64,000 nt of DNA, from contig JBALVT010000003.1 in assembly GCA_036961345.1 (NCBI GenBank), positions 6,139-70,138 of the forward strand, in the 5' to 3' direction. Within the stretch, counting starts at the first letter, position 1, and every line of letters starts with the position of its first letter. The DNA is from Halioglobus sp. (GTDB lineage Bacteria; Pseudomonadota; Gammaproteobacteria; Pseudomonadales; Halieaceae). Of the stretch, positions 48,075-64,000 are shown one piece after another. Made by a program: the position numbers and the translations under genes. The notes below the pieces were generated by a model that had not been told where the DNA came from, did not search any database, and saw only the letters and a list, made by a program, of their open reading frames with translations.

Positions 48075-49050
48075 CCTGGTTTATAATTTCGTCAATCACC
48101 ATATCAGCGCTGACATGATCTGCCAGTGCGTCATAGCTAAGTATCAGGCGGTGCCGAAGTATTGAGTGGGCTACCGCTCTGACATCATCCGGATCTACAT
48201 GATCCCGTCCAGCTAGCCAGGCATTGGCTCGGCTTGCACGGTGCAGCGCTATACTGGCGCGCGGGCTGGAACCGGTGTCTATCCAGTTTTTCAGTTTCTC
48301 TCCATAGTGTTGTGGAGCGCGAGTTGCGATAACCAGATCCACAATATAGTGTTCCACTGCTTCGGCAACGTGCATTTTCTGGATTTCTTCCTGTGCGGAA
48401 AAAATGTTATCTTGAGAAATCATCTCGAAAGCTTTTTGCTCGTGGCCTTCTTCTTTTTGCAGCAGCCGGATAATGGCAAGCTCAGCTTCGGCATCCGGGT
48501 AGTCAACTGATATTTTCATGAGAAAGCGATCCATCTGTGCTTCCGGCAACGGGTAGGTGCCTTCCTGCTCTATCGGGTTCTGGGTGGCAAGAACCATAAA
48601 AAGTGGCGGTAGTGGGTAGGTTTTCCCCGCAACTGTGACGGTGCGTTCCTCCATTGCTTCAAGCAGGGCAGACTGAACTTTTGCCGGTGCCCTATTGATT
48701 TCATCCGCCAGTACCAGTTCATTAAAAATGGGGCCCGGTTGAAATGTCAGCTCCGATTTTCCCTGGTTGTCCTGATAAATTTCGTTGCCCGTTACATCCG
48801 AGGGTAGTAGGTCAGGGGTGAACTGAATTCGACCCAGATTTGCTTTGAGCACCCGCGAAAGCGTCTTGATAGAGCGCGTTTTGGCGGTACCAGGTAAGCC
48901 TTCTAGCAAAACATTGCCGTTGCAAAGCAGCGCGATGGTCAAGGTGTGAACAACCTCCTGTTGGCCAATTACGGACTGGGCCATCTGGCTCATCATGGTA
49001 TTAACTGCACTGAGATGTTGGCTTGACACTGGAAGCTCCAAATACGTCAT
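48061..49050 (-). CDS. MoxR-family AAA+ ATPase
   Basis: Walker A GLPGTAKT, Walker B LADEINRA, and the ATQNPIEQEGTYPLPEAQ(M)DRF motif. Confidence 0.92.
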   Translation of the reverse strand: MTYLELPVSSQHLSAVNTMMSQMAQSVIGQQEVVHTLTIALLCNGNVLLEGLPGTAKTRSIKTLSRVLKANLGRIQFTPDLLPSDVTGNEIYQDNQGKSELTFQPGPIFNELVLADEINRAPAKVQSALLEAMEERTVTVAGKTYPLPPLFMVLATQNPIEQEGTYPLPEAQMDRFLMKISVDYPDAEAELAIIRLLQKEEGHEQKAFEMISQDNIFSAQEEIQKMHVAEAVEHYIVDLVIATRAPQHYGEKLKNWIDTGSSPRASIALHRASRANAWLAGRDHVDPDDVRAVAHSILRHRLILSYDALADHVSADMVIDEIINQVAVG

Positions 49051-49082: not shown

Positions 49083-50105
49083 CTAATCAGTGAACTGATC
49101 CATTAGCTGCAGAATTTTTTCAAGATTCTCAATGAACAGGGGCACCAGTTTCGGGTCAAACTGCTTGCCCGATTGGTTTTGTATGTGCGCGATGCTGTCC
49201 TCTACTGTCCAGGCTTCCTTATACGGGCGTTTGGAGGTCAATGCGTCAAATACATCTGCAATGGCAACGATGCGTCCCACCAGTGGGATTGCCTCTCCAC
49301 TCAACCCCATCGGATAGCCACTGCCATCCCAGCATTCGTGGTGTGACGCTGCTACCTGGCTGGCCATTTTGAGAAGCTCGGAATCGTCATCGCCAATAAT
49401 CGTAGTGCCCATTTGTGTATGGGTATGCATGATTGCCCATTCTTCATCATTCAGAGCTTCAGTTTTTTGTAAGATCCGATCGGGTATTCCGATTTTACCA
49501 ATATCATGCATGGGCGATGCGTCCAGCAACATGTCCGCCATGCTCTCGCTCATTCCCGCCGCCAACCCAAGTACTCTGGAATAATGGCTCATGCGAATAA
49601 CGTGCATACCGGTATTGTCATCCTTGTACTCCGCGGCGCGCCCCAGACGCTGAATTATTTTCAGACGCGTGTCATTGATCGTGCGAGTTTGTTCCCGTAC
49701 CTGGCGGCCCAGTTCCCGGTTCTGGTCGTGCAACGCAATATGGGTTTTAACGCGTGCTTGCACAACAGGTGGGCTTATTGGCTTGGTTATGTAGTCGACC
49801 GCGCCCAGCCCGAAACCATGGATTTCGTCCTCTGTGCTGATCTTGGCGGTGACAAAAATAACCGGGATATCGCAGGTGGTTGGGTCTTCCTTCAATTTTT
49901 TACAGACTTCAAAACCGTCGATACCCGGCATCATAATATCCAGCAGTATCAAGTCAGGTGCGATTGGGAGCCGAGCAATCTTCAGTCCCTGTTCACCGTT
50001 TCGAGCCGCTTTAACTTTGTAATCGTCCTTGAGGATTGCCACCAGCAAATCGATATTTTCCGGTGTGTCGTCCACAACCAGGACGGTTGCTTGGTCGTCG
50101 TTCAT
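49083..50105 (-). CDS. Two-component response regulator with HD-GYP c-di-GMP phosphodiesterase domain (RpfG type)
   Basis: REC domain (VLVVDD..LILLDIMMPGIDG) plus an HD-GYP domain (HDIGK..HHECWDGSGYP). Confidence 0.9.
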   Translation of the reverse strand: MNDDQATVLVVDDTPENIDLLVAILKDDYKVKAARNGEQGLKIARLPIAPDLILLDIMMPGIDGFEVCKKLKEDPTTCDIPVIFVTAKISTEDEIHGFGLGAVDYITKPISPPVVQARVKTHIALHDQNRELGRQVREQTRTINDTRLKIIQRLGRAAEYKDDNTGMHVIRMSHYSRVLGLAAGMSESMADMLLDASPMHDIGKIGIPDRILQKTEALNDEEWAIMHTHTQMGTTIIGDDDSELLKMASQVAASHHECWDGSGYPMGLSGEAIPLVGRIVAIADVFDALTSKRPYKEAWTVEDSIAHIQNQSGKQFDPKLVPLFIENLEKILQLMDQFTD

Positions 50106-50172: not shown

Positions 50173-53100
50173 TTAGTCGAGTTTTTGCATCATGTCGCCT
50201 ACGGTTTGTAGTGACACCTCGTAGTCGTAATCCCCTATGCTCTTTACCAGATTTTTGAAATCGCTCAGCAGCAGTGGCGCTGATAATTCTGCGCTGTGCT
50301 CTTCAAGAAAGTCGCCGACGGAGGCATCGTATTCGTTGAGCATATCCGTCAGTTGGCTTAGTAACTCACGGGACCGACTGCGGTCGAAATTATCCTCGAT
50401 CGGCGGCTCCTTTTTCTTCTCTAAAGAAGGTCCAATTTGTGCGCGCAGGCCAGCTATCTCAGTCTGAAGTTTCTGGAGTGTATCGTGGTTCGGTGTACTA
50501 CTTGAGAGTTCTTCTTCGGCCTGTGCGGCGATAGCTTCCAGCGCGGTCGCGCCGATATTGCCTGCCAGGCCTTTTACAGTGTGTGCCAGCCGGGTTGCCG
50601 GCTCTGATTCATTTGACGACATAGAAGTCGCTAATTGTTGTTCGAAGTTGTCGTATTTTTCATAGAATTTTTGTAATAATTTTATATATAGCGCTTGATT
50701 GCCATTCAATCGTTCCAGGCTGGCAGTTACATCAACCCCAGCAAGTACAGGAATGCTTTCAGTGCAGGAATCGGTCACAGCGGGAGCTGCGGTCTCGGTG
50801 CTCCGTAGCATAGGTTCTATCCATTGGGCCATCGTAACGAACATTTTTGATACATTAATGGGTTTGGGAATGTGATCGTTCATTCCCGATGCCAATGCCT
50901 TTTCCCTGTCCCCAGCCATAGCATTGGCAGTCATCGCTAGAATGGGTAAATCGGTAAAACGTTTATCCTCGCGCAGTTTTCGTGTGGCGCTATAGCCATC
51001 AAGTACAGGCATTTGGCAATCCATCAATACACCATCGAAAGTATGGTTTTGCATGGTATCGATTGCCTCCTGGCCGTTATTGGCGATCGTGACATGCAGC
51101 CCGTGGCTCTGGAGTATCTCCTCGGCCAGTTCCTGATTGAGTTCATTGTCTTCCACCAGCAATATTCGCGCACCGTTAAGTTTAGCCAGGGCCTCTGAAA
51201 ATGCGCTGTCGTTTGCGCTGGTTGCGGTGGCTAGAGTAACCGCACTACCGATGGAGGAGAAAATTGTCTCCAGCATTGTTGAGGGTGTTACCGGTTTGGT
51301 GAGTATCGTGTGAACAGCGATAGTATCCGCCTGGGCGACCAACTCTTCCTTGCCATGTGCTGTTAGCATTATGACAGTGGGCGCAGGGTGTATTTTTTTG
51401 GAGGTCTGCAGTAAGCGGGTTGTTTCGATTCCGTCCAAACCGGGCATTTTCCAGTCCATAATCACCAGTGATATTGCCTCTTCTGGCGAGTTTTTTTCGA
51501 GTAATTTGATGGCATCGCGACCACTGGATACAGCTTGTATGTGTATACCGAAACTTGTGAACATCGAACACATAATATCTCGGGCGTGGGCATTGTCATC
51601 AACGACTAGCGCCCTAATCGAAGATAGCTCGGTCAAGTCGTACTTTGCCGCTTGTGTGTCGCCCTCCTGAAGCCCGAAGTGGGCCGTGAATGAAAATACC
51701 GAACCTTTGCCGGGTTCGCTACTTACCCAAATCTCTCCGCCCATTAATCGGGTCAGGTTTTGACAGATAGCAAGGCCCAGGCCGGTGCCGCCATAGGTTC
51801 GGGTGGTTGAAGTATCCGCCTGACTGAACGGCTGGAACAGCCTTGTTTGCTGTTCTTTGTTCATGCCTATGCCGGTATCGCTAACGTCGAATCGGAGGCA
51901 GACATTGTTGGGCTGTTGTTCCAGCAGGCTTATCTTGACCACGACGTCGCCTGATTCGGTAAACTTCACGGCATTGTTGCCCAGGTTAACCAGAATTTGA
52001 CCCAGTCGCAGAGGATCGCCCGTTAAGTCTGTAGGTATGCTCGGCGCGATATCAAACAGTAACTCCAGGCCTGCTTCTTCTGCTTTCAGGCCAACCAGGT
52101 TGGACAAATTGACCAGTACATCTTCCAGCTGGAAGTCGATTTTTTCCATGGTGAGTTTACCGGCCTCAATCTTGGAAAAGTCGAGAATGTCGTTGATTAT
52201 GCCCAGCAATGCTTCCGCCGAGCGATTCACCTTGTCGATATAATTGCGTTGTTTATTGTTCAGGTCAGTTTGTAGTGCGAGATAGGACATGCCGATTATT
52301 GCATTCATGGGTGTGCGGATTTCGTGAGACATGTTGGCCAGAAAATCGCTTTTGGTTTTGTTGGCCTCCTCGGCCAGATGTTTAGCTCCCTCCAGCAGTC
52401 GCATTGCTTCTGCCCTCTCGGTGAAATCGAGAAGCGAAACACGAACCTCCTCCAGTTTGTCATCGTTGAACATTGGGACGGCCGAAACAGAGGTAAAGAC
52501 AGCTGATTGATCTTTTCGCTGTATGGCCAGTTGCACGTCCATGCACGGTTCACCGCGAGTGATTCGCGCGGCCATCTCAGTATTGTTGGCGGTCAGAAGA
52601 TCGTGCCAGTTTATGTTTTCGAATTCCTCCCGTCGGTAACCGGTGAGCTGAGAAAAGGCCAGATTGTGTTTGAGGATTTCGCCACTTTCGGTGATTGAAA
52701 CATAGGCAACAGGTGCATTCTCGTACAAATCCCAAAGCCTGCTTTCTCTCGCTTCCAGGTCCTCTGTGCGCCTTTGCACACGGAGTTCCAGGCCTTCGTT
52801 GACTTTTAGTAGCTGGGCGTTGGCGCGGTGGCTGATCCAGAATACGCCTACTGCAAGGAACAAACATAGGGGCACAGTTGAACCCATCACACCCAGAATG
52901 ATATTTCGAGAGCCCTCATAACCCTTCATGGCCTCGGCCTGGCTGATCTCGGTGATCAGGCCGATACCAAGGCGTTCATTCCAGGTCCATACACCGAAGA
53001 CTTCTACTCCTCGATAGTTTTTGTACCCCGAAAAGTTCTCTCCCGATAGGTGAGATTTGACGGCGGCGGCACTTTCGGTAAGAGTGCTTTTTTCCGATGT

Positions 53101-54033
53101 GGGGGTTTTAGCCTCGTAGTTTTTCGGTGGCCATACCAGTTCAACATTGAGAATGGCTGTCTCGCCGGGGTTGAGTATTCCGGATTCGATCAATTGCTTT
53201 TCAAATCGGCTTGGAGAAATCATGAAACCCCTGTCGTCACTAAAATAGGTTTCGCCACTGGTGCCTACGCGTCCGCCAGCGGTCAGTTTGCCAAATTCCA
53301 GAGCAGGGTCCATGCGCATGGCCAGAATCGCGACGACCGATCCTTTATCGTTATGTATGGGTGCGGCTATAAACATGGAGGCATGATAATCCTCGGTACC
53401 GGTGATGCCATAGATGGGGACGTCCGAGCGTATGCTTGGTATCAAGACTACTTCGCCCGCAAACACCCGACCCAGAAGCTCCGGATACTCTTCGGCTATA
53501 AGGTTAATCTGGGCAAGATTGCTGTTACGCATAGACCCGATGTTGACGTGATCGGGGGAAATGACAAAAAAACCTCTGTGCTCCAGACCACTTCCGCCCT
53601 CGGTGATAATTTCACGAATACGTCGAAGTTCACGACTTCTTTCAAGAATTTGTGATGTGGGTTGTTTGCTCAACAGTCTTGTGACCTGCGTGCGAAATAC
53701 CGGCTCCGAGGCAATGGAAATAATTCGCGACTCCCAGCCTCCCAGCCAGGTGCTAAGTGCAGCATTGGTCGTTGTTGAAACCGCCTGTAGTGACTCGCCA
53801 GTCTGTTTACGCGTTTGCTCCCGTGACTCGGTTAAAGCTGCAATGGCGATCAGGGCGATCGTGGCGAGTACCAGCACCAACGCGGCCCCAGCTAACAGGC
53901 GTAATTGTGGTGTATTGAGCATGTCGCTCTGAGTGGAGACAAGGGCAGGTTTTTTAGCTCTTAGCAGCACCAGGACTGTTATCAACAAGCCCAGTAATAG
54001 TGCTGCGGTGGCGGCGGTTGCCATGTCGGACAT
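50173..54033 (-). CDS. Hybrid sensor histidine kinase: periplasmic Cache-like sensor, PAS, HisKA/HATPase, two REC domains and a C-terminal Hpt
   Basis: 1286 aa. H-box [11 protein letters not shown] and G-box [11 protein letters not shown] Asp sites [12 protein letters not shown] and [12 protein letters not shown]. Hpt [12 protein letters not shown]. Confidence 0.9.
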
Positions 54034-54161: not shown

Positions 54162-54722
54162 TTAGCAGGCCCAGTCACGAAAATCGCGAAACTGTTTGGA
54201 CAAATAAGCCATTTGATCCGTTAGGATGCGGTCCTTCGCGAGGAAATGCCACTCCCAGGTATTGGGCCTGAAAGGCACGCCCAGCAGTGGCATCTTGGCT
54301 TCTTCGGGTGTCTTGTCATCTTTGCGCCAGTTGCAGCGCCCGCATGCTGCTACCACGTTTTCCCATCGATCTGCCCCGCCGCGGGAGGTGGGTTGAACAT
54401 GGTCCCGGGTGAGCTCTGAACGCGGAAATTGGCGACCGCAATAAAGGCAGCGGTGGTCGTCTCGTCTGAAAAGTGTCTTGTTTGTTAAGGTGAGCGTGAA
54501 GCCGCTGACAATTCTGCCGTGGACGGCGATAATCGGTTGGATGTCAATTCGTGATTGCATGCCCGTCAAGCGTTGTACTCCGCCAAACATAGGCGGAAGC
54601 GTTTCCCCTATGCCATAGCAGACATCGCCTCGGGCGTAGGCCGTTACGGCTTCATGCGCGGATATCCACCCTCGAGGCTGGCCCGCAAGATCCAGTTTCA
54701 GGACATTTTGCATGGTTTCCAC
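54162..54722 (-). CDS. HNH endonuclease-domain protein
   Basis: CLYCG..DHVQPTSRGG..WENVVAACGRCNWRK is an HNH/zinc-finger motif in the C-terminal half. The N-terminal 90 aa are of unknown fold. Confidence 0.8.
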   Translation of the reverse strand: METMQNVLKLDLAGQPRGWISAHEAVTAYARGDVCYGIGETLPPMFGGVQRLTGMQSRIDIQPIIAVHGRIVSGFTLTLTNKTLFRRDDHRCLYCGRQFPRSELTRDHVQPTSRGGADRWENVVAACGRCNWRKDDKTPEEAKMPLLGVPFRPNTWEWHFLAKDRILTDQMAYLSKQFRDFRDWAC

Positions 54723-54808
54723 TCATCATCTAAGGCCAACGCTACTGCAAAATCGACCTCTTAACAAATGTGAATTTTCCCGCTCTGTTATGCCTGGCTC
54801 CTGTTTGA

Positions 54809-55420
54809 TCAAACAGCGGTCCAGGAGTGGCATAATAGTTCCTCGTCACCGGCCAGAACCTTTCCTTCAAAATGGTCCCCTGCCAATACCCGGCCGACTC
54901 CTGCAGGTGTTCCTGTCATGACAATATCGCCATCTTCCAGGGTCGTAAACTTCGACAGTTCACCTAAGATGGTACCCGGCTTATACATCATGAGTGGTGT
55001 GCCGCCAGTCTGCCTGAGTTCTCCATTTACGCTAAGTGCCAGTGTAAGAATCTCTAGATTTTTGGGAACGGGCACAAACTTGCTAAAGAGAGCAGCACCG
55101 TCGAAAGCTTTGGCGCGCTCCCAGGGTAGCCCTTTTTCTTTTAGTTTGGATTGAAGTTCACGTTTGGTCAGGTCGAGGCCAAAACCCACCGCGCTTAGTT
55201 CGCCGTGCTGAACGACAAAGCAAAGCTCACTTTCGTAGTGAATAGACTCCCCTAAATGAGAGTGCAAGGTTGTGCCGATGGCCGAATTTGGCTTGTTGAA
55301 CACCACCATGTCATCCGGTATTTCGTTCCCCAATTCTTCGATGTGGGCCACATAGTTTCGACCGATACAAACAATTTTACCGGGTGTGATAAGAGCGTTT
55401 TGTAGCTCGATGGTATGCAT
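54809..55420 (-). CDS. Fumarylacetoacetate hydrolase family protein
   Basis: 203 aa with the FAH fold pattern (KIVCIGRNYVAH, YESELCFVV, GDIVMTGTPAGVG). Confidence 0.88.
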   Translation of the reverse strand: MHTIELQNALITPGKIVCIGRNYVAHIEELGNEIPDDMVVFNKPNSAIGTTLHSHLGESIHYESELCFVVQHGELSAVGFGLDLTKRELQSKLKEKGLPWERAKAFDGAALFSKFVPVPKNLEILTLALSVNGELRQTGGTPLMMYKPGTILGELSKFTTLEDGDIVMTGTPAGVGRVLAGDHFEGKVLAGDEELLCHSWTAV

Positions 55421-55542: not shown

Positions 55543-56544
55543 ATGAAATTCTCCGCGACAGGTGCTTTCCAGAGCCTTTTTATATCAACCCTGCTAAGCC
55601 TGTTATGGGTTGGAGCAGCCAATGCACAGTGGCTGAAGGCCTCACGTACGCTAATGGGGACCCAGGTCAGTGTAGAAATATGGTCAGAGGATATCGTGAC
55701 GGGACGCGACGCCATTGAAAAGGTTTTTGCCGAGATCGAACGGCTGGATTTAATGATGAACCCCTGGAATGTTGAGAGTGAACTGGCGCGTATCAATCGC
55801 GAAGCCGCTTTACATCCAGTGACGACCACAGCCGAGATTATTACCGTGATTGACAAGGCGCTCTATTATTCCCGTCTTAGCGATGGGGCTTTTGATATCA
55901 GTTTCGCCTCTGTTGGCCAGTATTATGACTATAGAGAGGGTAAATCGCCGGATGCCAAGAAGCTGGCGTCTGAGCGGGAAAATATAGATTTTCGGACTAT
56001 AGAGCTGGACGTTGCTGATTCGACTATTCGCTATACCAAGCCCGGATTGCAAATTGATTTGGGCGGGATTGCAAAAGGTTATGCGGTGGATCGAGGCATA
56101 GGCATTTTGCAGGAACTGGGGATAGAGTCTGCGGTGATCGCTGCCGGAGGAGACAGCCGAATACTGGGCAGCATGGCGGACAGGCCGCGAATTATAGGCA
56201 TTCGGCACCCTCGTAAAAAAAATGAACACGCCGTACTCATGCCCCTGGTCGATACCGCCATTTCCACCTCTGGCGATTACGAGCGCTATTTTGTGAAGGA
56301 TGGAATACGCTTTCATCATATTCTTGAGCCCTCGACGGGGGAGGCGTCCCGTGGCGTACAAAGCGCCAGCGTAATCGCAGCGTATGCGCTGGATACGGAC
56401 GCGCTATCAACCACAGTTTTTGTATTAGGCGTGGAGCGCGGGCTTGAGCTTGTCAATCGCCTGGAGGGCGTGGACGCCATCGTAATCGATGGCGAGGGTA
56501 AACTGCACTATTCCCAGGAGCTATTGCTTAGTACCAGGCCGTGA
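55543..56544 (+). CDS. apbE: FAD:protein FMN transferase (ApbE family), secreted
   Basis: Signal peptide. MGTQVSVEIW, DLGGIAKGYAVD and TSGDYERYF motifs. Confidence 0.88.
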   Translation: MKFSATGAFQSLFISTLLSLLWVGAANAQWLKASRTLMGTQVSVEIWSEDIVTGRDAIEKVFAEIERLDLMMNPWNVESELARINREAALHPVTTTAEIITVIDKALYYSRLSDGAFDISFASVGQYYDYREGKSPDAKKLASERENIDFRTIELDVADSTIRYTKPGLQIDLGGIAKGYAVDRGIGILQELGIESAVIAAGGDSRILGSMADRPRIIGIRHPRKKNEHAVLMPLVDTAISTSGDYERYFVKDGIRFHHILEPSTGEASRGVQSASVIAAYALDTDALSTTVFVLGVERGLELVNRLEGVDAIVIDGEGKLHYSQELLLSTRP

Positions 56545-57673
56545 AGAGTATTTTAAATACATCAGCTTCGAAGTCGTAGAGTTTTTCTTCTCCGACCGGA
56601 GAGTTCACATCTGTCAGATCGCTAAAATTATCATAATCAAACCAGATTCGATCCCACTGTAATGAAATGCCTGCTTTGTCCAACCATCGGTTGCTAACGT
56701 CGCGTGAATAACTCAAGTGAAGTGAAAGGGTGTGGTCGGTGAATTCGCTGAGTTCTTTGTCCCTTGCGCGGTAGTCCTTATCGTCCTGGGAGGAAACGAT
56801 GAACAGATCGCTGTAGAAATCAGCAGCGCCTTGCTGGTAATACCGGTACTTTAGATCGCCGGTCCAGTTTTCAAAAAACACATGGGTGTAAATTATCTGC
56901 GCGGTATGGGCGTCAATTCCCCAATCATCAGTGAAGTAGCGATAACTGCCGCCCGCGCTGGCATGCCAGGGTAGACGATAGCGGAATCGGATTGCCGCCG
57001 CATCGCTGGTGCGGGTTTTGGGGTAAACCTCCTGGGCAAGTTGGTACCCAGCCTCGGGGTCTAGCGGGTCGCTTAAGTAGCGATAACTGCGGTATGGATT
57101 GTTCAGAAAGCCTTCATCGGTAATAAGCTCGTAATTGAAACCCAGAATGAGCTCGGGGGTGACGATCTGACTCACACCCAGACGATAACTATCACGGCTT
57201 ATTTCTTCGGCAAATTCGTCGTTCCCGTTTTGAAAAACCTCATCTTCACCTCGGGCATAGCCCAGGGAAACGTTAGTTAAATCACCGAAGAAGTCCTGAC
57301 TAATATTGAAGTAGTAGGTTTGCGCCTGATAGTCGCTTTCATCGCTGTCCGTGTAGCCGGCGCTTAATATACTCTTGTCATACAGATAATTAGCGCCAAT
57401 GGAATATTCTGTGCGCTCTTCTTTGTAGGCTGAAGCGCCGCTGGTAACCACATCTATCGAGGCGCTACTGATGTTGTCTACGTAGTAGTTTCCACTGATT
57501 GAGACAGTTTCCTTGAAATTTTTTCTGACCAATATCGAAGGCCCGTCGACAGTAACGCCGCCACCATCGTATCGGTGATACATTGCGTCTGCTCGCTCTT
57601 CTGGCAATACGGCACCGTGTGCCGCAGCCGCACAATATAAAACGAGGACGAAGGCTAATCTAATTGCAACCAC
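56528..57673 (-). CDS. DUF3570-like predicted outer-membrane beta-barrel protein
   Basis: Alternating beta-strand pattern and a C-terminal ...ILFTAWY beta-signal. The probable GTG start at 57673 or 57679 overlaps the DUF4266 stop; the ORF-track ATG starts would overlap it by 70 nt or more. The 3' end overlaps apbE by 17 nt. Confidence 0.75.
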   Translation of the reverse strand: MVAIRLAFVLVLYCAAAAHGAVLPEERADAMYHRYDGGGVTVDGPSILVRKNFKETVSISGNYYVDNISSASIDVVTSGASAYKEERTEYSIGANYLYDKSILSAGYTDSDESDYQAQTYYFNISQDFFGDLTNVSLGYARGEDEVFQNGNDEFAEEISRDSYRLGVSQIVTPELILGFNYELITDEGFLNNPYRSYRYLSDPLDPEAGYQLAQEVYPKTRTSDAAAIRFRYRLPWHASAGGSYRYFTDDWGIDAHTAQIIYTHVFFENWTGDLKYRYYQQGAADFYSDLFIVSSQDDKDYRARDKELSEFTDHTLSLHLSYSRDVSNRWLDKAGISLQWDRIWFDYDNFSDLTDVNSPVGEEKLYDFEADVFKILFTAWY

Positions 57674-57884
57674 AGCCACCGCCTCCACCGCCCTCTGCAC
57701 CACGTGCACCCTCGCGTGCCTGATACACATGGTGGCCATATCCTTCGGCAATTGGATCTCTTTCAAAGCTCATGATTGGGTCCGCCATATTCTGTCGCTC
57801 GTAGGGCTTCACCCATGGTTCGACACCACAGGCGCTAACAAGCGGCATTAGCAATAGTAGCGACAATAACCTTAGCGTCTTCAT
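57660..57884 (-). CDS. DUF4266-like small lipoprotein ending in Gly6-Cys-Gly-Cys-Asn
   Basis: Lipobox LVSAC. 74 aa. C-terminus GAEGGGGGGCGCN. Starts 4 nt after the TlpA stop. Confidence 0.75.
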   Translation of the reverse strand: MKTLRLLSLLLLMPLVSACGVEPWVKPYERQNMADPIMSFERDPIAEGYGHHVYQAREGARGAEGGGGGGCGCN

Positions 57885-57888
57885 CGGC

Positions 57889-58371
57889 TTATTCCTTGAT
57901 TAGTGTACGCACCTGTTTTTCATATTCGTGTTCATAGCCTGGTTTGTAACCGCGGTGCATAAAGCGAATGTCACCGTTGCGGTCTACCAGAACGGTAACT
58001 GGCATTGCATCGACGTCATACAGTTCACTCACCAGATTGGAGTCGTCAAAGAGGATTGGGAAAGAGACGGGGATATCGCGCAGAATTTTGTCGGCCATCT
58101 TGCGATCCTGCTCCACGTTGACGCCGAAAACTGTAAATCCCATAGGTTGATATTTCTGATGGATGGCGTCCAAATGCGGCATCTCCTGTCTACAGGGGCC
58201 GCACCAGGAGGCCCAGAAATTTATTAGTACCACCTGTCCGCGGTATTCGCTGAGCCGAATGTTTTCACCGCCGGCGCTTTTTAATGTGAAGTTTTCGGCT
58301 GGCCCAGTGTCGGTGACCGCCAGGGTCGATGATGCGTATACCAGCATGAATAGAAGTAGAATGTTTTTCAT
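57889..58371 (-). CDS. TlpA-family periplasmic thiol:disulfide oxidoreductase
   Basis: Signal peptide and the WASWCGPC active site. Confidence 0.88.
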   Translation of the reverse strand: MKNILLLFMLVYASSTLAVTDTGPAENFTLKSAGGENIRLSEYRGQVVLINFWASWCGPCRQEMPHLDAIHQKYQPMGFTVFGVNVEQDRKMADKILRDIPVSFPILFDDSNLVSELYDVDAMPVTVLVDRNGDIRFMHRGYKPGYEHEYEKQVRTLIKE

Positions 58372-58396: not shown

Positions 58397-59041
58397 TTAG
58401 AAAAAGAAAGTAATGCCTGTGGTCAGTTCAATATTGTTAGTCGTCTCATCTTTGCCAAAGGTATCCCGGTCAAAAATGTGGTCGCGTACATCAATCCGCC
58501 AGGCTATCGTGTCATTGAGGAGCAATCGATAGCCCGCTCCAACTGAAATAGTAAACCAGCTATCGCCCAGGAATTCGGTGCTGCCCACGCCGCCGATAAA
58601 GTACAGATCAGACTTCAGGGCTGTATTGCCAAAGACAAAAACTTCACCGGGTAGTGCGTTCCAGCCCAGATTTAGGTCGTAGTAGGTATAATCCCGATCG
58701 CTGTCTTTAAACAAGGGGGCTCCCCCACTGAGCTTTTCGTAACTGGTTAGATCTCCCTCGGAGCTCCCAATGCTTGCCTCAAAAAAGAAGTCCTCTGTGA
58801 TGTGCCAGGCTCCGCGCAACCCATAAACAACCTCGCTTTCGAAATCCTGGATACTGAGAATGCCGACAAAAGGGCCCACTTCGAAATTTTCAGTATCGAT
58901 CTTGGCAGTGGTGATCTCTCGCCGATCAATCTCGGGGTCGATAACCTGTAGAGGCTCTGGCTGTTCATCGGCATAGCTATAGCCGGACAGTGTAGTGTAA
59001 AAAGCGACCGCTAGTAGAAGGCGCTTATTCCAATTTTCCAT
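58397..59041 (-). CDS. Small outer-membrane beta-barrel protein
   Basis: Signal peptide ([17 protein letters not shown]). Alternating strands. C-terminal ...TTGITFFF. Confidence 0.7.
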
Positions 59042-59796
59042 TCGTCGACCTCATCGTCATCGTCGCGATCAGTCATGATCACGTAGTGTTTATATTGCAA
59101 ACGCAGTAGTAGGCGCTTGCTCAAATGTATCCGTATGCCAGCACCTACGCTGGCGGTTGAGTCTGTACGATCCTCAGTTTCTACCAGGGATGATCGGGGA
59201 TTGGTTTCGCGTACTCCCCCGCCAATGGTTAGAAATGGCGAATAGCGTTTATCGGGAAACATCTGGTGAACGATACTGGCGGTCACCATTTTCCCATCGG
59301 AAAAATCACCAAAATTCTCGGTCGCTGCCACTTCCAGGGATAAGTTTCGCGTAAAGTGCCAGCCTACATAGCCGGTAATCGCATCGGAGCTGTCGTAGTC
59401 TCCCGCCATGATGCCAAATTCCCAGGTACGATTGGCGAAGCTTTCCAGGTCTGGACTCTTGAAATTTAGCGGTTCACCGTCTGAGTTAAGGGTCGCTCCG
59501 ATGTCGTCCACGTGAACCCAGCCCTCAATCCCACGTTGATTACGAATTTTAATCCAGTCGGTGCGACGCTTGAGTAACTCAATGGTTTCACCACGCTCTG
59601 CAATATAGAAAACGGGGTAGCCGCGCCCGGGCTGCGTACGCATTTCGATATAGGGCTGAGCTACGACGGACTGCATGGCCGCTTCCGGTTCGTCCGCCTG
59701 GGATATCGTGCTGCCCAGGCAAAGCAACAACACCAGCACCAGGTTGCCAAGAGTTTGGGCGTGGCGCGTACTATGGTTGTTTTTGTATGCCTGCAT
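59011..59796 (-). CDS. SH3b-like domain fused to an outer-membrane beta-barrel
   Basis: Signal peptide, then an SH3-like segment ([46 protein letters not shown]). The barrel ends ...WKIGISAFY. The start is ATG 59796 or TTG 59826; the latter overlaps the upstream stop. Confidence 0.7.
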
Positions 59797-59818
59797 GCCC
59801 ACTTGTATACCGTTATTT

Positions 59819-62626
59819 TTATTCAATCAGGCGAGCATCGAATGGATTGTTATAGTACTGGGCACCGATATCCAGCCACTCGGATATAAGCCGCAATTCA
59901 CTGGCGCTCAACAGGCCCCGATGATCCACCGTATTGGTGGTTGCGGGCACTGGTATGCCGCCGTCTTCCGTGCAATTGTCCGGTAGCGCAGGTACGGCGT
60001 CGGGCCCGCAAGCTCCACCCTCAAAACAATTTAAAAAGCCGTCACTTTGGTTGGCAAAGCCGGCACGCATTCTTGTGCCCACTGACAGTGTTAGCGTTGT
60101 GCTGAGTATATTGCCCTGCTCATCCACTTCACTGCAAACTCGCTGGCGTTCGGCCAGGGCTCCGGCTGTCGTAATCCATTGCGCCGAGTCGATATCCAAT
60201 AGCTCACGATAAGAGCGGTAGTGGTCGGGGTCAATAGCGGAAGGAGAATTGGTGAGGTCAAGTTGGCCAGCCGCCACACTGGTATCGCCCGCAGTTGCAT
60301 GGCAGCCTACGCATGTGTCGATCATATTGCCGCTGCCATCGTCTACTGCGCTGCGTACTCGCTGCCAAATGGGCTGTATGTGGTCGATATAATTAATCAC
60401 GATACGGCTGGGTTCTCCAGGGTCCAAATTGTTTACAATAATCGGTTTGTCCGCTGGAATATCCGTCCAGTCAGGATCGTATTCCCGATCGAGAATGTCC
60501 GGGTCCCGGGTCAGGGTTGGTGCGCTCCATTCATCGGTATAAGAAGGGGCCAGCGTCAATTGCCTGTCCGGTGCCGTTTCGTTGCCCATGGGCCTGTGAA
60601 AGTCCCATACCTGGGCCATTGTCTGTCCCACTTCGGTGGCGAAAAGGTCGGTTGAGTCGGTTCCACTAAAACCAGTAACACCGTTTGGTAGCGCCGTGGC
60701 GCCGGGGTTGGACGCCGTGGGTTGCGAATTGTATCTGCCATGCGGTAAGGGGTTGCCCCCGGAGTGACAGCCGGTGCAGTGCATCACCTCTCCGGGGCCC
60801 AGTTGCAACCAGTAGTTGTGACGTGGACCAATTCTGCGGCCCTGGACATCCAGAACACTGAAGCTGAACGGCCTGTCGGCGGATACGTTCACGGTGACTG
60901 AACCATCTGGCTCTATCGGTGCGTAACCGGTGATCTCGCGAAACGAAAAAGCGGTCGTTACACCAAAGGCAAACTCTGGGATTTCAAACACGTCAGGGTC
61001 GGGAATAGGTACCGGCTGGAATATTCTCAGAAACCGTGCAGGGCGTGCGGCGAAGGCGGGGTTGCCAGGTTGTGCGTGCTGGGCAATGCCGGCCGGTGAG
61101 TTATCCATGCCGTCCAGGTCGTAAACGCTGTCTATCAATAGCTGGCCCATATTTGCCGCGGCCAGATCGGCGTTAAAACTCAATGGCAGTGGCAAAATCT
61201 CGGGGAATTCGCGCGGCTCAGCGGCGATCACCTCGGTAATAATAAATCCTTCCTGACCGACGACAACCGGTAACTGTGTGTCGTTGGCGGGGTCGTAAAT
61301 CCAGGCGCCATACAGGGGAGGGGCTACGACGGTGTTGTCGGCTTGTAGTTTGCAGGGCTGGAAATCGCCGGCCTGAGCGGCTTGATCGGGGTCGGTAAGG
61401 TTTGCGTCTTCGGCTATTACACGACAATCAGCCCAGGTCACCAGCAGGCGTCCGGTGCCATCGCGCAGCGGGTAAACTGAACCAAATTGACCCCCCTGCG
61501 AGAGCAGTCCGTCGGTTCGTATTTCGGTATTGGTTAGCGACACATGTCCGGGTCCGGCTGCGCCCTGATTTTCCCAGGTAGGCTGGTCCCGCTCTGTAAA
61601 ATTTTCTGTGTCGATAATAATAAGCTCGCCGCCGAAAGTAGTTGAGCTAAAAGGTTTGGCGACACTAATCAGTCGCCCGTCGTCCAGTTCTCTGGGCGCC
61701 ATGAATTCGATCGCGCTGTCGTTGGTGCCGGTATTTTGGCTGTGAAAGCCATACAGCGGTGATAATTCCAATCCTGAGGGGCTCACCCGGAACAGACTGA
61801 TGTGATTGCTGGCGGTGTTGTTCCAGCGGCTGAACACAATTTCCCCTGAGGAAAGCACAGCGGCGTCCAGGTCGTGGCTTAAATTGAAAGAAATCTGTTT
61901 GAATTCGGCATCGCGTAATTGCGGATCATAAATATGCAACACTGCAGCTGGGTCATTACCGCTTTCGGTAAGCGCGGCGAATATCTGGCTGCGGCTCTCG
62001 TCAAGTTGCCTGGCCTGGCTGGCAACCTGTCGTGTGGAGCTAAACAAAATTCGATCGTCTGTTAGAAAGTGTGGTGCTATATCGTGGCCACCACCTGTTT
62101 CCACGCCTTCATTTCGTTTGATACGCGATGGGATGAGGTATTGGGGTTCCAGAGACTCCAGGTTCAGGGTCCATAGATTCCAGGTTGTGCGTTCGAGGTT
62201 GTCATCTATAGGCTGGGGTACCGCGCGAACGGCAAAAATCAGAGTGCTGCCGTCAAAAGAGCTGTCCACGCCTTTGATGTCTATGGCGATTTCTTCAGCG
62301 GCAATACCTTCTTCTTCAGCAACTACCTGGGCTATCAGCCTGGTAATGTCAGTTTCATCCGCGCTGGCAGCAGAACGATCTCTCACAAACAGCTGCGCAC
62401 CGGGTGCAAATTCCAGCGGATTCCTCAGGTCGGTGGGCTCTTCAGGCAGGGGGCGTTTGATATAGGCGATGGGTATTTCCAATACCACGGGATCTTCGCC
62501 CTGGCTGTCTTTGGAAATGCTCACGCCACCGCCACCGCCACCGGTGCAGCCAACGGCAAATACGATCGGAATTAGCGGAGCAAGGGTGCCAAATAATGCT
62601 CCCGAAATTTGCCCAATTTTCTTCAT
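59819..62626 (-). CDS. 935-aa lipoprotein: Gly6 linker, beta-propeller-like N-terminal half, two CXXCH heme-binding motifs in the C-terminal half
   Basis: Lipobox AVGC followed by TGGGGGG. TolB/PD40-like strand motifs ([26 protein letters not shown]). CTGCH at residues 617-621 (nt 60778-60764). CVGCH at residues 772-776 (nt 60313-60299). Confidence 0.8.
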
Positions 62627-62915
62627 TTTCCAGTTATTACCTGTGGTTATTATACTAAAAACAGCGAGACCGATAAAATAAATCCTTTAGAATCAGGTAG
62701 ATAGAAATATTTTTTGATTTGATCATCTATTCTGGCCCTATTGTGATACCGTTTGCAATATAAAAAGTACAAACAGTTAGGGAATATAAACACCTCCAGC
62801 AGCCATATGATGCACGACAAATTTGGGGGATTTTTAATCGCGGGACCCGCTTATCCGCGTTAACGAGGTTTGACAAATCAGCTGACACTGATTCGCCACT
62901 TTTGAGGCCTGGTTG

Positions 62916-64000
62916 ATGGATTGGGGCAAGCATTTTTTAAACATTTTTTTGGTATTTGCATTGTTTTCCGAGCTCGGTTACGCCGGGCCTCGTGAGCAGG
63001 CTATACGCATTCACGATCGCTTGACCGGCGTGCCGGCCAGCGATGCGATGTTGGATGTGATGGAAAGCGCCATCGGCGGAAGCGGGGGTGCAGTGACAGC
63101 TGCTCTGTATGCCATCGACGGTGCGCCCGATCTACAGGCCACCGGAGATTTCTACACGGTTACCTTGAAGAACTGGGCAACCCCCTGGAGCAATGAAGCC
63201 CAGGACAGTTTTGCGCCACTGAACGATTACAGTGCAACCGTCATTGGCATGGCGCGAGACGAAATAGATTTTAGGCAATTGCTGTCGGCGGATATTATGT
63301 ACCGTGGAGCGATCGCAGGGATACCTGCCTATTCTGGCAGTAACAATGATCACTATGAATTCCTGGAAGCATCCGGGCGAAATCTGGGCGATCCCGATGT
63401 CCTGGTAAGAGATCTTCAGAGCAGCGTCACCAGCCTTCCCCAATCCGCAGTTGCGGGTGTTATGACCACGCGAGCTGCGGCGCGTTCCTTCTTTGTTGAT
63501 GGTACCAACCGTGCGATGTTCCGTTTCACGCTATTGAATCACCTGTGCATGGACCTGGAACAACTCAAGGACGGCAGCAGGCCACCCGATCGAATCAGGC
63601 AAGATGTGTCGCGCAGTCCTGGCGGTGATAGCGCGTTATTTCTGAATCAATGTGTTACCTGCCACAGCGGTATGGACCCAATGGCCCAGGCATTTGCCTA
63701 TTATGATTTCCCGTATCCGGCAGAGGAGGAATTTCCCAATCTTGAGTTGGACGCTCGTAAGGACATGGGAAATATTGTGTACACCGAGGGAGTGGTGCAA
63801 GCCAAGTATTCGATTAACTCAGCAACCTTTGCCACTGGTTATGTCACGCCGAATAACCATTGGACCAATTACTGGCGCCTGGGGGATAACAGCGGGCGCG
63901 TTGGCTGGCACGGGGACGCTGCAAATACGGGTGCCTTTGATTTGGCCGTAAACCCGGCCTACTCCGAGGGAGACGGCGCGGCTTCGCTGGGTTCTGAACT
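62916..64000 (+). CDS. Secreted protein with a CXXCH-x3-DP motif; C-terminal end lies beyond the right window edge
   Basis: Not in the ORF track because it has no stop in the window. I translated it by hand from ATG 62916: MDWGKHFLNIFLVFALFSELGYAGP... It stays open to nt 64000. CVTCHSGMDP is encoded from 63651. Confidence 0.7.
   Translation, partial: MDWGKHFLNIFLVFALFSELGYAGPREQAIRIHDRLTGVPASDAMLDVMESAIGGSGGAVTAALYAIDGAPDLQATGDFYTVTLKNWATPWSNEAQDSFAPLNDYSATVIGMARDEIDFRQLLSADIMYRGAIAGIPAYSGSNNDHYEFLEASGRNLGDPDVLVRDLQSSVTSLPQSAVAGVMTTRAAARSFFVDGTNRAMFRFTLLNHLCMDLEQLKDGSRPPDRIRQDVSRSPGGDSALFLNQCVTCHSGMDPMAQAFAYYDFPYPAEEEFPNLELDARKDMGNIVYTEGVVQAKYSINSATFATGYVTPNNHWTNYWRLGDNSGRVGWHGDAANTGAFDLAVNPAYSEGDGAASLGSE

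What the first reader, a model, noticed from the sequence alone, without database searches (positions are those of the whole stretch)
55543..58371. Conserved-looking but uncharacterised envelope quartet: TlpA thioredoxin, DUF4266 lipoprotein, DUF3570 barrel, converging on ApbE
Seen in sequence:
- Three minus-strand genes are packed with a 4-nt gap (TlpA to DUF4266) and a start/stop overlap (DUF4266 to DUF3570). The barrel gene overlaps the 3' end of apbE by 17 nt.
- All four products are exported (signal peptides or lipobox).
- TlpA carries WCGPC. The barrel ends in an OMP-type ...FTAWY.
- The barrel contains DVVTSGASAY (nt 57445-57431). This matches the short [ST]GA[ST] consensus at which ApbE enzymes attach FMN.

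Established knowledge: ApbE flavinylates extracytoplasmic proteins such as NqrB/C and RnfG, and TlpA proteins are periplasmic reductants. As far as I know, DUF3570 and DUF4266 have no assigned function.

Inference: this is a thiol- and flavin-linked redox module of the outer envelope. The 4-residue motif could occur by chance; my rough expectation across these exported proteins is about 0.1-0.2.
Basis: partly seen in the sequence, partly recalled or inferred. Interest (0 to 1): 0.72.

Follow-up and report, generated by a model that had tools for sequence, protein, structure and literature searches.

The report
Known flavin-tagged outer-membrane barrel system
The four genes are a real, conserved envelope redox module, but it was described in 2021, when the barrel protein of a relative was shown to be flavin-tagged by ApbE; the new lead here is that the module sits in one tight gene string behind a hydrazine-synthase-like two-haem lipoprotein.

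Summary
Observation confirmed. ApbE, DUF3570, DUF4266 and a TlpA/ResA-like redoxin lie at the stated coordinates, with the stated gaps, overlaps and motifs.

The interpretation (a thiol- and flavin-linked envelope module) is supported, but it is not new. Méheust et al. (eLife 2021, PMC8238504) described this ApbE + DUF3570 + thioredoxin-like + DUF4266 cluster. They showed that the Chlorobium luteolum DUF3570 is flavinylated by its own ApbE at two motifs.

What I add:
- **Two sites.** The window protein has two adjacent ApbE-type sites, DNISSAS (Ser74) and DVVTSGAS (Ser83). The first is at least as conserved.
- **Barrel.** AlphaFold gives about 16 strands. Both sites lie in the β3–β4 loop, which standard topology puts on the outer or lumenal side.
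- **DUF4266 tail.** The Gly-rich C-terminus ending GCGCN is essentially invariant.
- **Larger block.** The quartet is the end of a six-gene string: HzsA-like two-haem lipoprotein, SH3-barrel, small barrel, redoxin, DUF4266, DUF3570. A divergent haem-protein gene lies upstream. The block holds down to 32% DUF3570 identity.
- **Joint loss.** Two relatives without the acceptor serines also lack ApbE, the HzsA-like gene and the CGC tail.
- **No DsbD** in the window.

Verdict: a new member of a known kind. The system's function is still unknown. Interest is moderate.

The parts
55543..56544 (+). ApbE, FAD:protein FMN transferase. It has a Sec signal peptide and converges on the barrel gene.
   Evidence: PF02424, E=8e-74. 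NCBIfam ApbE match, 104 bits, well below the model's 498-bit cut-off. An ApbE gene lies within 8-10 kb of DUF3570 in 25 of 38 related loci, usually convergent.
56528..57679 (-). DUF3570 outer-membrane beta-barrel, about 16 strands. The start is GTG 57673 or 57679. The C-terminus ends in ...FTAWY.
   Evidence: PF12094, E=2e-36. AlphaFold pLDDT 86, pTM 0.81. Foldseek hits are outer-membrane barrels only: FadL, OmpG, PelB, AlgE, OprD. Some homologues also match Porin_4 or are named porin.
57458..57478 (-). ApbE-type site 1, D68-N-I-S-S-A-S74. The predicted FMN acceptor is Ser74.
   Evidence: In 69 diverse representatives: D68 in 59, [ST]71 in 59, A73 in 62, [ST]74 in 66. It fits D-x-x-[S/T]-G-A-[S/T] with Gly replaced by Ser. 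A Gly-to-Ala change still allows about 50% flavinylation in a model substrate (PMC12052999).
57431..57454 (-). ApbE-type site 2, D76-V-V-T-S-G-A-S83. The predicted FMN acceptor is Ser83.
   Evidence: [ST]GA[ST] in all 120 close homologues. In 69 representatives: D76 in 64, A82 in 56, [ST]83 in 62. G81 is an insertion present in 9 of 69. The site lies in loop 72-86, which contains a short helix at 75-80.
57660..57884 (-). DUF4266 lipoprotein. Lipobox LVSAC with Gly at +2. It has a Gly-rich tail.
   Evidence: PF14086, E=3e-22. Adjacent to DUF3570 in 37 of 40 loci. Alignment.
57666..57674 (-). C-terminal Cys-Gly-Cys of DUF4266 (…GGGGGGCGCN).
   Evidence: GCGCN is present in 35 of the 37 DUF4266 C-termini tabulated. 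The exceptions are a frameshifted locus (L029) and L038, which ends …RCGC. It is absent from the DUF4266-like protein of L043, whose barrel lacks both acceptor serines. The CXC motif was noted by Méheust et al..
57889..58371 (-). Periplasmic TlpA/ResA-like thiol:disulfide oxidoreductase. WCGPC is at 58192-58206.
   Evidence: AhpC-TSA/Redoxin E~1e-27. ResA 107 bits and TlpA 82 bits, both below cut-off. WCxPC is conserved in related loci.
58397..59041 (-). Small outer-membrane beta-barrel protein (OMP_myx_plus). It ends ...ITFFF.
   Evidence: TIGR04565, E=1e-49. Present in 36 of 38 related loci.
59011..59826 (-). Protein with an N-terminal SH3 domain and a C-terminal small outer-membrane barrel. 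It ends ...ISAFY.
   Evidence: SH3_3 E=2e-9 and OMP_b-brl E=4e-8. Present in 35 of 37 related loci.
59819..62626 (-). HzsA-like two-haem lipoprotein, first gene of the string. Invariant lipobox Cys27, followed by a Gly-rich linker (TGGGGGG). CTGCH is at 60778-60764 and CVGCH at 60313-60299.
   Evidence: PF18582, E=9e-14. AlphaFold pLDDT 85.7. The top Foldseek hit is hydrazine synthase alpha, 5c2v_A, E=8e-24 over the whole length; the next hits are propellers at about 1e-8. Both CxxCH motifs are conserved. Present in 31 of 33 related loci.
62627..62915 (.). AT-rich divergent intergenic region. It presumably holds the promoters of both arms.
   Evidence: Read from the sequence. No consensus promoter above chance. 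No conserved Fur, FNR or sigma-54 site. No Rfam match.
62916..64000 (+). Divergent conserved gene, about 400-430 aa, cut by the window end. It has a signal peptide and one CxxCH (CVTCH, 63651-63665). No family match.
   Evidence: Found divergent from the HzsA-like gene in 29 of 32 related loci. In longer loci it is followed by a LamG_3 protein, a ~540-aa protein, a ~180-aa protein and TPR proteins.

Best explanation
This is a bona fide instance of the published ApbE/DUF3570/DUF4266/thioredoxin-like flavinylation system.

**Proposed mechanism.**
1. Periplasmic ApbE transfers FMN from FAD onto Ser74 and/or Ser83. These serines lie in two tandem heptads in the β3–β4 loop of a ~16-strand outer-membrane barrel. 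The transfer probably happens on the unfolded chain, before the barrel is inserted.
2. A TlpA-like reductase is kept reduced by a DsbD/CcdA protein encoded outside this window.
3. TlpA exchanges electrons with the flexible CGC tail of the outer-membrane lipoprotein DUF4266.
4. That tail exchanges electrons with the barrel-bound flavin(s).
5. In this gammaproteobacterial lineage the module lies in one tight co-directional gene string with an HzsA-like two-haem lipoprotein and two small barrels. That lipoprotein is the most likely redox partner. Flavin would convert two-electron thiol chemistry into one-electron haem chemistry.

**Shown here:** family membership, conservation of the sites, tails and haem motifs, synteny, and predicted folds.

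**Shown only in the literature, for a homologue:** covalent flavinylation.

**Inferred:** the route and direction of electron flow, the identity of the partner, the topology, and the physiological substrate.
For: - All four families are confirmed.
- The cluster and the flavinylation of C. luteolum DUF3570 at two motifs are published (PMC8238504).
- Both sites are conserved and are the only conserved motif positions in the family.
- They fit the 7-residue ApbE motif (PMC12052999).
- The predicted barrel has the sites in a loop, and its structural neighbours are outer-membrane barrels only.
- The published substrate was modified without a signal peptide and recovered from the insoluble pellet. 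ApbE therefore does not need the folded barrel.
- In 37 tabulated related loci the GCGCN tail is present in 35, TlpA WCxPC in all 35 with a TlpA gene, and two CxxCH in 29 of 32 HzsA-like genes.
- Where flank is available: DUF4266 37/40, TlpA 37/40, HzsA-like 31/33, ApbE 25/38.
- The same block is found starting from HzsA-like homologues at 45% identity and from DUF3570 at 32-43% identity.
- Two motif-less DUF3570 loci lack ApbE, the HzsA-like gene and the CGC tail together.
- The six genes from 62626 to 56528 are co-directional with gaps of at most 25 nt.
Against: - No flavinylation data exist for this protein or its clade.
- Site 1 has Ser in place of the motif's Gly, and site 2 has its Asp one residue further away than the motif.
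- ApbE is the least constant neighbour (25 of 38).
- No DsbD/CcdA is present in the 64-kb window, so the electron source is unseen.
- The redoxin here is of the AhpC-TSA/Redoxin type, not the Thioredoxin_7 (PF13899) type reported for most published clusters.
- The topology is deduced from the order of secondary-structure elements, not from coordinates, and the loop has lower confidence (pLDDT 64-73).
- If the loop is truly extracellular, periplasmic thiol partners could reach it only through the lumen.
- The two motif-less loci may reflect a single evolutionary event.
- My locus sample is biased towards gammaproteobacterial relatives.
Confidence: 0.72

Rival explanations
1. The TlpA-like protein is a ResA/CcmG-type apocytochrome reductase. 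It would be dedicated to maturing the locus's own c-type haem proteins (the HzsA-like protein and the divergent CxxCH protein). It would not donate electrons to the flavin. On this view DUF4266 and DUF3570 do something separate.
For: The best NCBIfam hit is ResA, 107 bits. Two or three CxxCH sites are encoded in the same locus.
Against: The redoxin–DUF3570 pair persists in loci that lack the HzsA-like and divergent haem genes (L034, L043). Published clusters pair a thioredoxin-like protein with DUF3570/DUF4266 and DsbD and mention no cytochromes. The ResA score is below the family cut-off of 170.
Confidence: 0.13
2. This is a metal-handling module. The CGC tail of DUF4266 would bind Cu, Fe or another metal. 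TlpA would keep the cysteines reduced, as TlpA does for ScoI and CoxB. The barrel would be the outer-membrane passage, with flavin acting as a metal reductase.
For: CXC tails can bind metals (general knowledge). [quoted passage not shown]
Against: The window and the related loci contain no metal transporter, Sco, or copper-chaperone genes. No Fur box is conserved in the divergent intergenic region. In the only motif-less locus that keeps a DUF4266-like gene (L043), the CGC tail is lost, which points to thiol–flavin coupling.
Confidence: 0.1
3. DUF3570 is an ordinary porin, and the SGAS match is a chance occurrence next to an unrelated ApbE gene.
For: A four-residue motif is expected 0.04 times per barrel by chance. 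ApbE is on the opposite strand and is absent nearby in 13 of 38 loci.
Against: The acceptor Ser is conserved at both sites across 30-50% identity. A homologue has been flavinylated experimentally.
Confidence: 0.02

Closest known systems
ApbE–DUF3570–thioredoxin-like–DUF4266 clusters ('DsbD systems', Méheust et al., eLife 2021, PMC8238504)
   Same: The same four families. Two adjacent flavinylation motifs in DUF3570. A C-terminal CXC in DUF4266. All products exported. The window belongs to the published class of 316 clusters that do not co-localise with DsbD.
   Different: The redoxin here is of the AhpC-TSA/Redoxin (TlpA/ResA-like) type, not PF13899. ApbE is convergent. The module is the tail of a six-gene string headed by an HzsA-like two-haem lipoprotein and two small barrels, which the paper does not mention (no 'hydrazine', 'HZS' or 'SH3' in its text). 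The paper also never describes DUF3570 as an outer-membrane barrel.
Classical ApbE substrates (NqrB/NqrC, RnfD/RnfG, FMN-bind domains, DUF2271)
   Same: FMN is attached as a phosphoester to the last Ser/Thr of D-x-x-[S/T]-G-A-[S/T] by a periplasmic ApbE.
   Different: Those substrates are soluble periplasmic domains or inner-membrane subunits. Here the acceptor is a loop of a predicted outer-membrane beta-barrel, with two sites 9 residues apart. The Gly is often replaced.
MtrCAB-type porin–cytochrome conduits
   Same: An outer-membrane barrel encoded with redox proteins and lipoproteins. It could in principle pass electrons across or along the outer membrane.
   Different: There is no homology. 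The cofactor is attached to the barrel itself and is a flavin, not a decahaem protein threaded through the barrel. Trans-membrane electron transfer here is pure inference.
Hydrazine synthase alpha subunit (Kuenenia stuttgartiensis, PDB 5C2V chain A)
   Same: The upstream 935-aa protein shares the whole architecture: N-terminal propeller, middle domain with CxxCH, and C-terminal domain with a second CxxCH. Foldseek E=8e-24. Sequence match to the middle domain.
   Different: About 15% identity. It is a lipoprotein. No beta or gamma subunit genes are seen. The host is a Halioglobus MAG (Halieaceae), not an anammox planctomycete. No activity is known.
TlpA / ResA / CcmG periplasmic thiol:disulfide reductases
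   Same: Thioredoxin fold, WCxPC active site, signal peptide. Such proteins depend on DsbD/CcdA (general knowledge).
   Different: Scores are below every equivalog cut-off. The presumed client is the CGC tail of DUF4266, not an apocytochrome or Sco.

Membership tests
DUF3570-based ApbE flavinylation system (Méheust 2021) | A DUF3570 (PF12094) protein with an export signal | tested here: met
   PF12094, 126 bits against a cut-off of 25. The signal peptide was read from the sequence.
DUF3570-based ApbE flavinylation system (Méheust 2021) | An extracytosolic ApbE encoded in the cluster | tested here: met
   PF02424, 249 bits. It has a signal peptide and overlaps the barrel's 3' end by 17 nt.
DUF3570-based ApbE flavinylation system (Méheust 2021) | Two conserved [S/T]GA[S/T] motifs in DUF3570 | tested here: inconclusive
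   Site 2 is strict (SGAS). Site 1 is SSAS (Gly replaced by Ser) but keeps D, S, A and S of the 7-residue motif. I infer that these are the two published sites because they are the only conserved motif columns. I could not fetch the C. luteolum sequence to check.
DUF3570-based ApbE flavinylation system (Méheust 2021) | A DUF4266 protein with a C-terminal CXC | tested here: met
   PF14086, 80 bits. It ends ...GCGCN.
DUF3570-based ApbE flavinylation system (Méheust 2021) | A thioredoxin-like protein in the cluster | tested here: met
   A redoxin with WCGPC. It belongs to a different Pfam family (PF00578/PF08534) from the PF13899 reported for 183 clusters.
DUF3570-based ApbE flavinylation system (Méheust 2021) | DsbD (PF02683) co-localised. 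This is optional: 227 clusters have it and 316 do not. | tested here: not met
   No DsbD/CcdA among any sizeable ORF of the 64-kb window.
DUF3570-based ApbE flavinylation system (Méheust 2021) | Covalent FMN on the barrel protein | not testable with these tools
   Shown only for the C. luteolum homologue.
Outer-membrane beta-barrel protein | A closed antiparallel barrel, a C-terminal aromatic residue, short turns on one side and long loops on the other | tested here: met
   AlphaFold strand pattern. Foldseek hits are outer-membrane barrels only. The protein ends ...FTAWY, and W382 and Y383 are nearly invariant.
Hydrazine synthase alpha (HzsA) | Propeller plus a middle haem domain plus a C-terminal haem domain | tested here: met
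   Foldseek match to 5c2v_A, E=8e-24, TM 0.61 on the target. Two conserved CxxCH motifs.
Hydrazine synthase alpha (HzsA) | NCBIfam equivalog score, and partner beta and gamma subunits | tested here: not met
   39.6 bits against a cut-off of 800. None of the sizeable window ORFs scanned matched a hydrazine synthase beta or gamma family. It is therefore 'HzsA-related', not HzsA.
TlpA / ResA equivalogs | Score above the curated cut-off | tested here: not met
   ResA 107.5 against 170. TlpA 82 against 230. This shows superfamily membership only.

The most novel reading that the evidence does not exclude
DUF3570 is a flavin-bearing outer-membrane barrel that acts as an electron relay through or along the outer membrane (a 'porin-flavoprotein').

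- Its two FMNs would sit on the β3–β4 loop, on the lumenal or outer side.
- They would be fed from the periplasm by the Gly-rich CGC tail of the lipoprotein DUF4266, which TlpA would reduce.
- They would pass single electrons to, or take them from, an HzsA-like two-haem lipoprotein held at the outer membrane with two small barrels.

The joint loss of the acceptor serines, the CGC tail, ApbE and the HzsA-like gene in motif-less relatives would then mark one functional unit. I found neither the HzsA-like link nor the barrel topology in the papers I could search.
Probability: 0.2. Interest if true: 0.8.

Novelty: new member of a known kind. Interest (0 to 1): 0.38.

Why it matters
The core claim is already in the literature, so the finding does not open a new category. 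However, the physiological role of DUF3570 systems is still unknown. The published analysis gives no terminal partner and does not treat DUF3570 as an outer-membrane protein.

This window and about 40 related loci give three concrete leads:
- a conserved HzsA-like two-haem lipoprotein as a candidate partner;
- a barrel topology that puts the flavin sites on the non-periplasmic side;
- joint loss of the flavin sites, the CGC tail, ApbE and the HzsA-like gene.

These leads can be tested directly in cultivable Halieaceae (Halioglobus, Pseudohalioglobus) or Dasania. If they hold, they would show a flavin-based counterpart to porin–cytochrome conduits. They would also give a first function for HzsA-related proteins outside anammox bacteria.

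Tried and rejected
- **Metagenome scan.** I used exact look-ups of 12 proteins instead: ten distant DUF3570 relatives and two HzsA-like homologues.
- **Paper supplement.** Supplementary file 1 of the eLife paper is stored truncated. It held no PF12094, PF14086 or PF18582 rows, so I could not reuse the published cluster tables.
- **Promoters and terminators.** The scan of 55.3-63 kb found no more sites than shuffled sequence.
- **Regulatory boxes.** A search for Fur, FNR or sigma-54 boxes in 31 orthologous divergent intergenic regions found nothing consistent.
- **RNA families.** Rfam, including the FMN riboswitch, gave nothing in 54-64 kb.
- **Divergent arm.** NCBIfam and the PDB sequence search gave nothing for the divergent-arm proteins. 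Pfam gave nothing for the window's partial divergent gene.
- **Uninformative loci.** L035, L040 and L044 were too short or showed a lone gene. L039 has a different arrangement (DUF3570, three unknown genes, DUF4266) that I did not pursue.
- **Coordinates.** I could not obtain model coordinates, so the position of the flavin loop (lumen or surface) rests on the order of strands and the lengths of loops.
- **Unused search.** I ran no further search on retrieving the C. luteolum sequence. Equating its two sites with sites 1 and 2 is by elimination.


Full report
**1. What is in the sequence**

- ApbE: 55543-56544 (+), PF02424, E=8e-74.
- DUF3570: 56528-57766 (-) as the maximal ORF, PF12094, E=2e-36.
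- DUF4266: 57660-57884 (-), PF14086, E=3e-22.
- Thioredoxin-fold reductase: 57889-58371 (-), AhpC-TSA/Redoxin E~1e-27. ResA and TlpA are the best NCBIfam hits, but both are below their cut-offs.

The spacing is mostly as described.
- The 4-nt gap and the 17-nt overlap with apbE are exact.
- The DUF4266/DUF3570 junction is a 14-20 nt overlap. The likely barrel start is GTG 57673, which has GGAGG 8 nt upstream and gives the 381 aa seen in many homologues. GTG 57679 is the alternative.
- WCGPC, ...FTAWY and TSGAS are at the stated positions.

Signal peptides and the lipobox are visible in the sequence, but no predictor was run. A 100%-identical copy of the neighbouring 935-aa protein comes from a Halioglobus sp. 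MAG. The closest DUF3570 homologues are from Halieaceae.

**2. It is already known**

A full-text search for DUF3570 returns Méheust et al., eLife 2021 (PMC8238504).
- The paper reports gene clusters with ApbE, DUF3570, a thioredoxin-like protein and DUF4266.
- 227 of them include DsbD, and a further 316 do not co-localise with DsbD.
- It notes the conserved C-terminal CXC of DUF4266.
- It identifies two conserved [S/T]GA[S/T] motifs in DUF3570.
- It shows that C. luteolum DUF3570 becomes flavinylated when co-expressed with its own ApbE. Both serines must be changed to alanine to abolish the signal.

The only other paper that mentions the pair is Haft's 2023 preprint. It notes DUF4266/DUF3570/TlpA next to some JDVT-CTERM proteins. 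A 2024 structural follow-up from the same group modelled other ApbE substrates and does not mention DUF3570.

**3. The flavinylation sites**

Residue numbers here are counted from GTG 57679. The window protein has two adjacent sites:
- site 1, D68-N-I-S-S-A-S74;
- site 2, D76-V-V-T-S-G-A-S83.

The full ApbE motif is D-x-x-[S/T]-G-A-[S/T], with FMN attached to the last residue. In a model substrate, Gly-to-Ala leaves about 50% flavinylation and Asp-to-Ala has a minor effect (PMC12052999).

In 120 close homologues, site 2 is always [ST]GA[ST] and site 1 is always [ST]SAS.

In 69 full-length representatives at about 30-50% identity:

| Position | Residue | Conserved in |
|---|---|---|
| 68 | Asp | 59 of 69 |
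| 71 | Ser/Thr | 59 of 69 |
| 73 | Ala | 62 of 69 |
| 74 | Ser/Thr (acceptor, site 1) | 66 of 69 |
| 76 | Asp | 64 of 69 |
| 82 | Ala | 56 of 69 |
| 83 | Ser/Thr (acceptor, site 2) | 62 of 69 |

- Gly81 is an insertion present in only 9 of 69. In most of the family both sites are therefore exact D-x-x-[ST]-x-A-[ST] heptads.
- Strict four-residue matches cluster only at acceptor columns 74 (20 sequences) and 83 (7 sequences).
- Three representatives have strict motifs at both columns, 9 residues apart.
- By elimination, these are the two published sites.
Conservation makes it irrelevant.

**4. The barrel and where the sites sit**

AlphaFold2 with 70 sequences gives pLDDT 86 and pTM 0.81.
- The strand pattern is consistent with a 16-strand barrel.
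- Connections on one side are 2-7 residues long.
- All long loops (72-86, 188-224, 285-312, 354-366) are on the other side.
- The mature N-terminus is only about six residues before β1, and the chain ends in an aromatic residue. The standard rule for outer-membrane proteins therefore puts the long loops outside.
- Both acceptor serines lie in the β3–β4 loop, which contains a short helix at 75-80 and has lower confidence (pLDDT 64-73). This loop is on the extracellular or lumenal side.

This is an inference from secondary-structure order, because I had no coordinates. Foldseek finds only outer-membrane barrels (FadL, OmpG, PelB, AlgE, OprD; TM 0.4-0.5), with no specific relative. The eLife paper never calls DUF3570 an outer-membrane protein. 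It does report that the signal-peptide-less protein was flavinylated while insoluble. That fits modification of the unfolded chain before insertion.

**5. The unit is larger than a quartet**

Three more co-directional genes lie directly upstream, with overlaps or gaps of at most 25 nt.
- A small OMP_myx_plus barrel, 58397-59041 (TIGR04565, E=1e-49).
- An SH3 + small-barrel protein, 59011-59826.
- A 935-aa lipoprotein, 59819-62626, with the hydrazine-synthase-alpha middle domain and two CxxCH motifs.

The AlphaFold model of the 935-aa protein has pLDDT 85.7. It matches hydrazine synthase alpha (5C2V chain A) over its whole length at E=8e-24. The next hits are propellers at about 1e-8. It scores far below the HzsA equivalog cut-off, and no beta or gamma subunit genes are present. 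It is therefore HzsA-related, not HzsA.

A divergent gene starts at 62916. It has a signal peptide, one CxxCH and no family match.

Co-occurrence was counted in 31 genome loci found by pattern scan, plus loci fetched for distant DUF3570 and HzsA-like proteins. Only loci with enough flank were counted.

| Neighbour of DUF3570 | Loci with it / loci with enough flank |
|---|---|
| DUF4266 | 37/40 |
| TlpA-like redoxin | 37/40 |
| Small barrel (OMP_myx_plus) | 36/38 |
| SH3-barrel | 35/37 |
| HzsA-like | 31/33 |
| Divergent haem gene | 29/32 |
| ApbE | 25/38 |

- The block holds down to 32% DUF3570 identity and 45% HzsA-like identity.
- In longer loci the divergent arm continues with a LamG_3 protein of about 900 aa, a ~540-aa protein, a ~180-aa protein and two TPR proteins.
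- In the 37 loci tabulated, the GCGCN tail is present in 35, WCxPC in all 35 that have a TlpA gene, and two CxxCH in 29 of the 32 HzsA-like genes.
- The sample is biased towards gammaproteobacterial relatives of the query.
- I found no paper linking HzsA-related proteins to DUF3570.

**6. Co-variation**

Two DUF3570 relatives have lost both acceptor serines.
- L034 lacks DUF4266, ApbE and the HzsA-like gene.
- L043 keeps a DUF4266-like gene, but that gene has lost the CGC tail. L043 also lacks ApbE and the HzsA-like gene.

Both loci keep the redoxin, the two small barrels and the big barrel. The two loci look related (both have Ysc84 downstream and TPR genes upstream), so this may be a single evolutionary event. 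Even so, it ties the flavin sites, the CGC tail, ApbE and the HzsA-like protein together.

**7. Mechanism**

*Shown:* family membership, conserved sites, synteny and predicted folds.

*Shown in the literature, for a homologue only:* flavinylation by ApbE.

*Inferred:*
- ApbE modifies Ser74 and/or Ser83 in the periplasm, before the barrel assembles.
- A DsbD/CcdA protein keeps the TlpA-like protein reduced. None is encoded in the window.
- TlpA exchanges with the CGC tail of the outer-membrane lipoprotein DUF4266.
- That tail reaches the flavin.
- The flavin couples two-electron thiol chemistry to the one-electron haems of the HzsA-like lipoprotein.
- The direction of flow and the substrate are unknown.

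*Rivals:*
- The redoxin matures the locus's cytochromes, as ResA does. Against this, the redoxin–barrel pair persists without the cytochromes.
- A metal-handling role. This is hinted at by VIT1 in 25 published clusters, but nothing here supports it.
- A chance motif in a plain porin. Conservation refutes this.

**8. Verdict**

The remaining interest lies in three leads:
- the unreported link to an HzsA-like two-haem lipoprotein and the extended locus;
- the outer-membrane topology of the flavin sites;
- the pattern of joint loss.

Together these make the still-unknown function testable.

Noticed in passing
window 59819-62626 (-): A 935-aa lipoprotein whose predicted fold matches hydrazine synthase alpha (5C2V_A) over its full length, with two conserved CxxCH motifs. 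The host is a Halioglobus MAG (Halieaceae), not an anammox planctomycete. Sources name homologues 'HzsA-related' or 'PD40 domain-containing'. I found no functional literature.
   Followed up: yes
window 62916-64000 (+), cut by the window end: A divergent gene for a secreted ~400-430-aa protein with one CxxCH and no Pfam, NCBIfam or PDB match. It is conserved opposite the HzsA-like gene in 29 of 32 loci. In longer loci it is followed by a LamG_3 protein (~900 aa), a ~540-aa protein, a ~180-aa protein and two large TPR proteins.
   Followed up: partly
window 57666-57700 (-), C-terminus of DUF4266: The tail ...GGGGGGCGCN resembles the GCGC signature that Haft describes for MYXO-CTERM sorting signals, but it has no transmembrane segment or Arg cluster after it. 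Haft also noted DUF4266/DUF3570/TlpA next to some JDVT-CTERM proteins.
   Followed up: no
L034 and L043 (distant DUF3570 loci): These DUF3570 variants have lost both acceptor serines. They keep the redoxin and the two small barrels but lack ApbE and the HzsA-like gene. L034 has no DUF4266, and the L043 DUF4266-like protein has no CGC tail. A Ysc84-family gene follows DUF3570 here, and follows ApbE in L032/L033 and L037.
   Followed up: partly
L039:548-4217: A different arrangement in a distant relative: DUF3570, then three genes with no Pfam match (330, 165 and 267 aa), then DUF4266.
   Followed up: no
window 54162-55420 (-): A stand-alone HNH endonuclease (186 aa) lies next to a fumarylacetoacetate-hydrolase-family gene. 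The same pair follows ApbE in the two closest genome loci (L001, L002).
   Followed up: no
window 42903-49050 (-): A MoxR AAA+ / DUF58 / DUF4381 / VWA / VWA / BatD string (Bat-type 'aerotolerance' operon). It is followed by a response regulator with an HD domain (49083-50105) and a 1286-aa hybrid histidine kinase (50173-54033).
   Followed up: no
window 11086-11598 (+) and 41160-41672 (-): Two shikimate kinase genes lie in one 64-kb window. The first sits between the pilMNOPQ genes and the 3-dehydroquinate synthase gene. The second stands alone.
   Followed up: no
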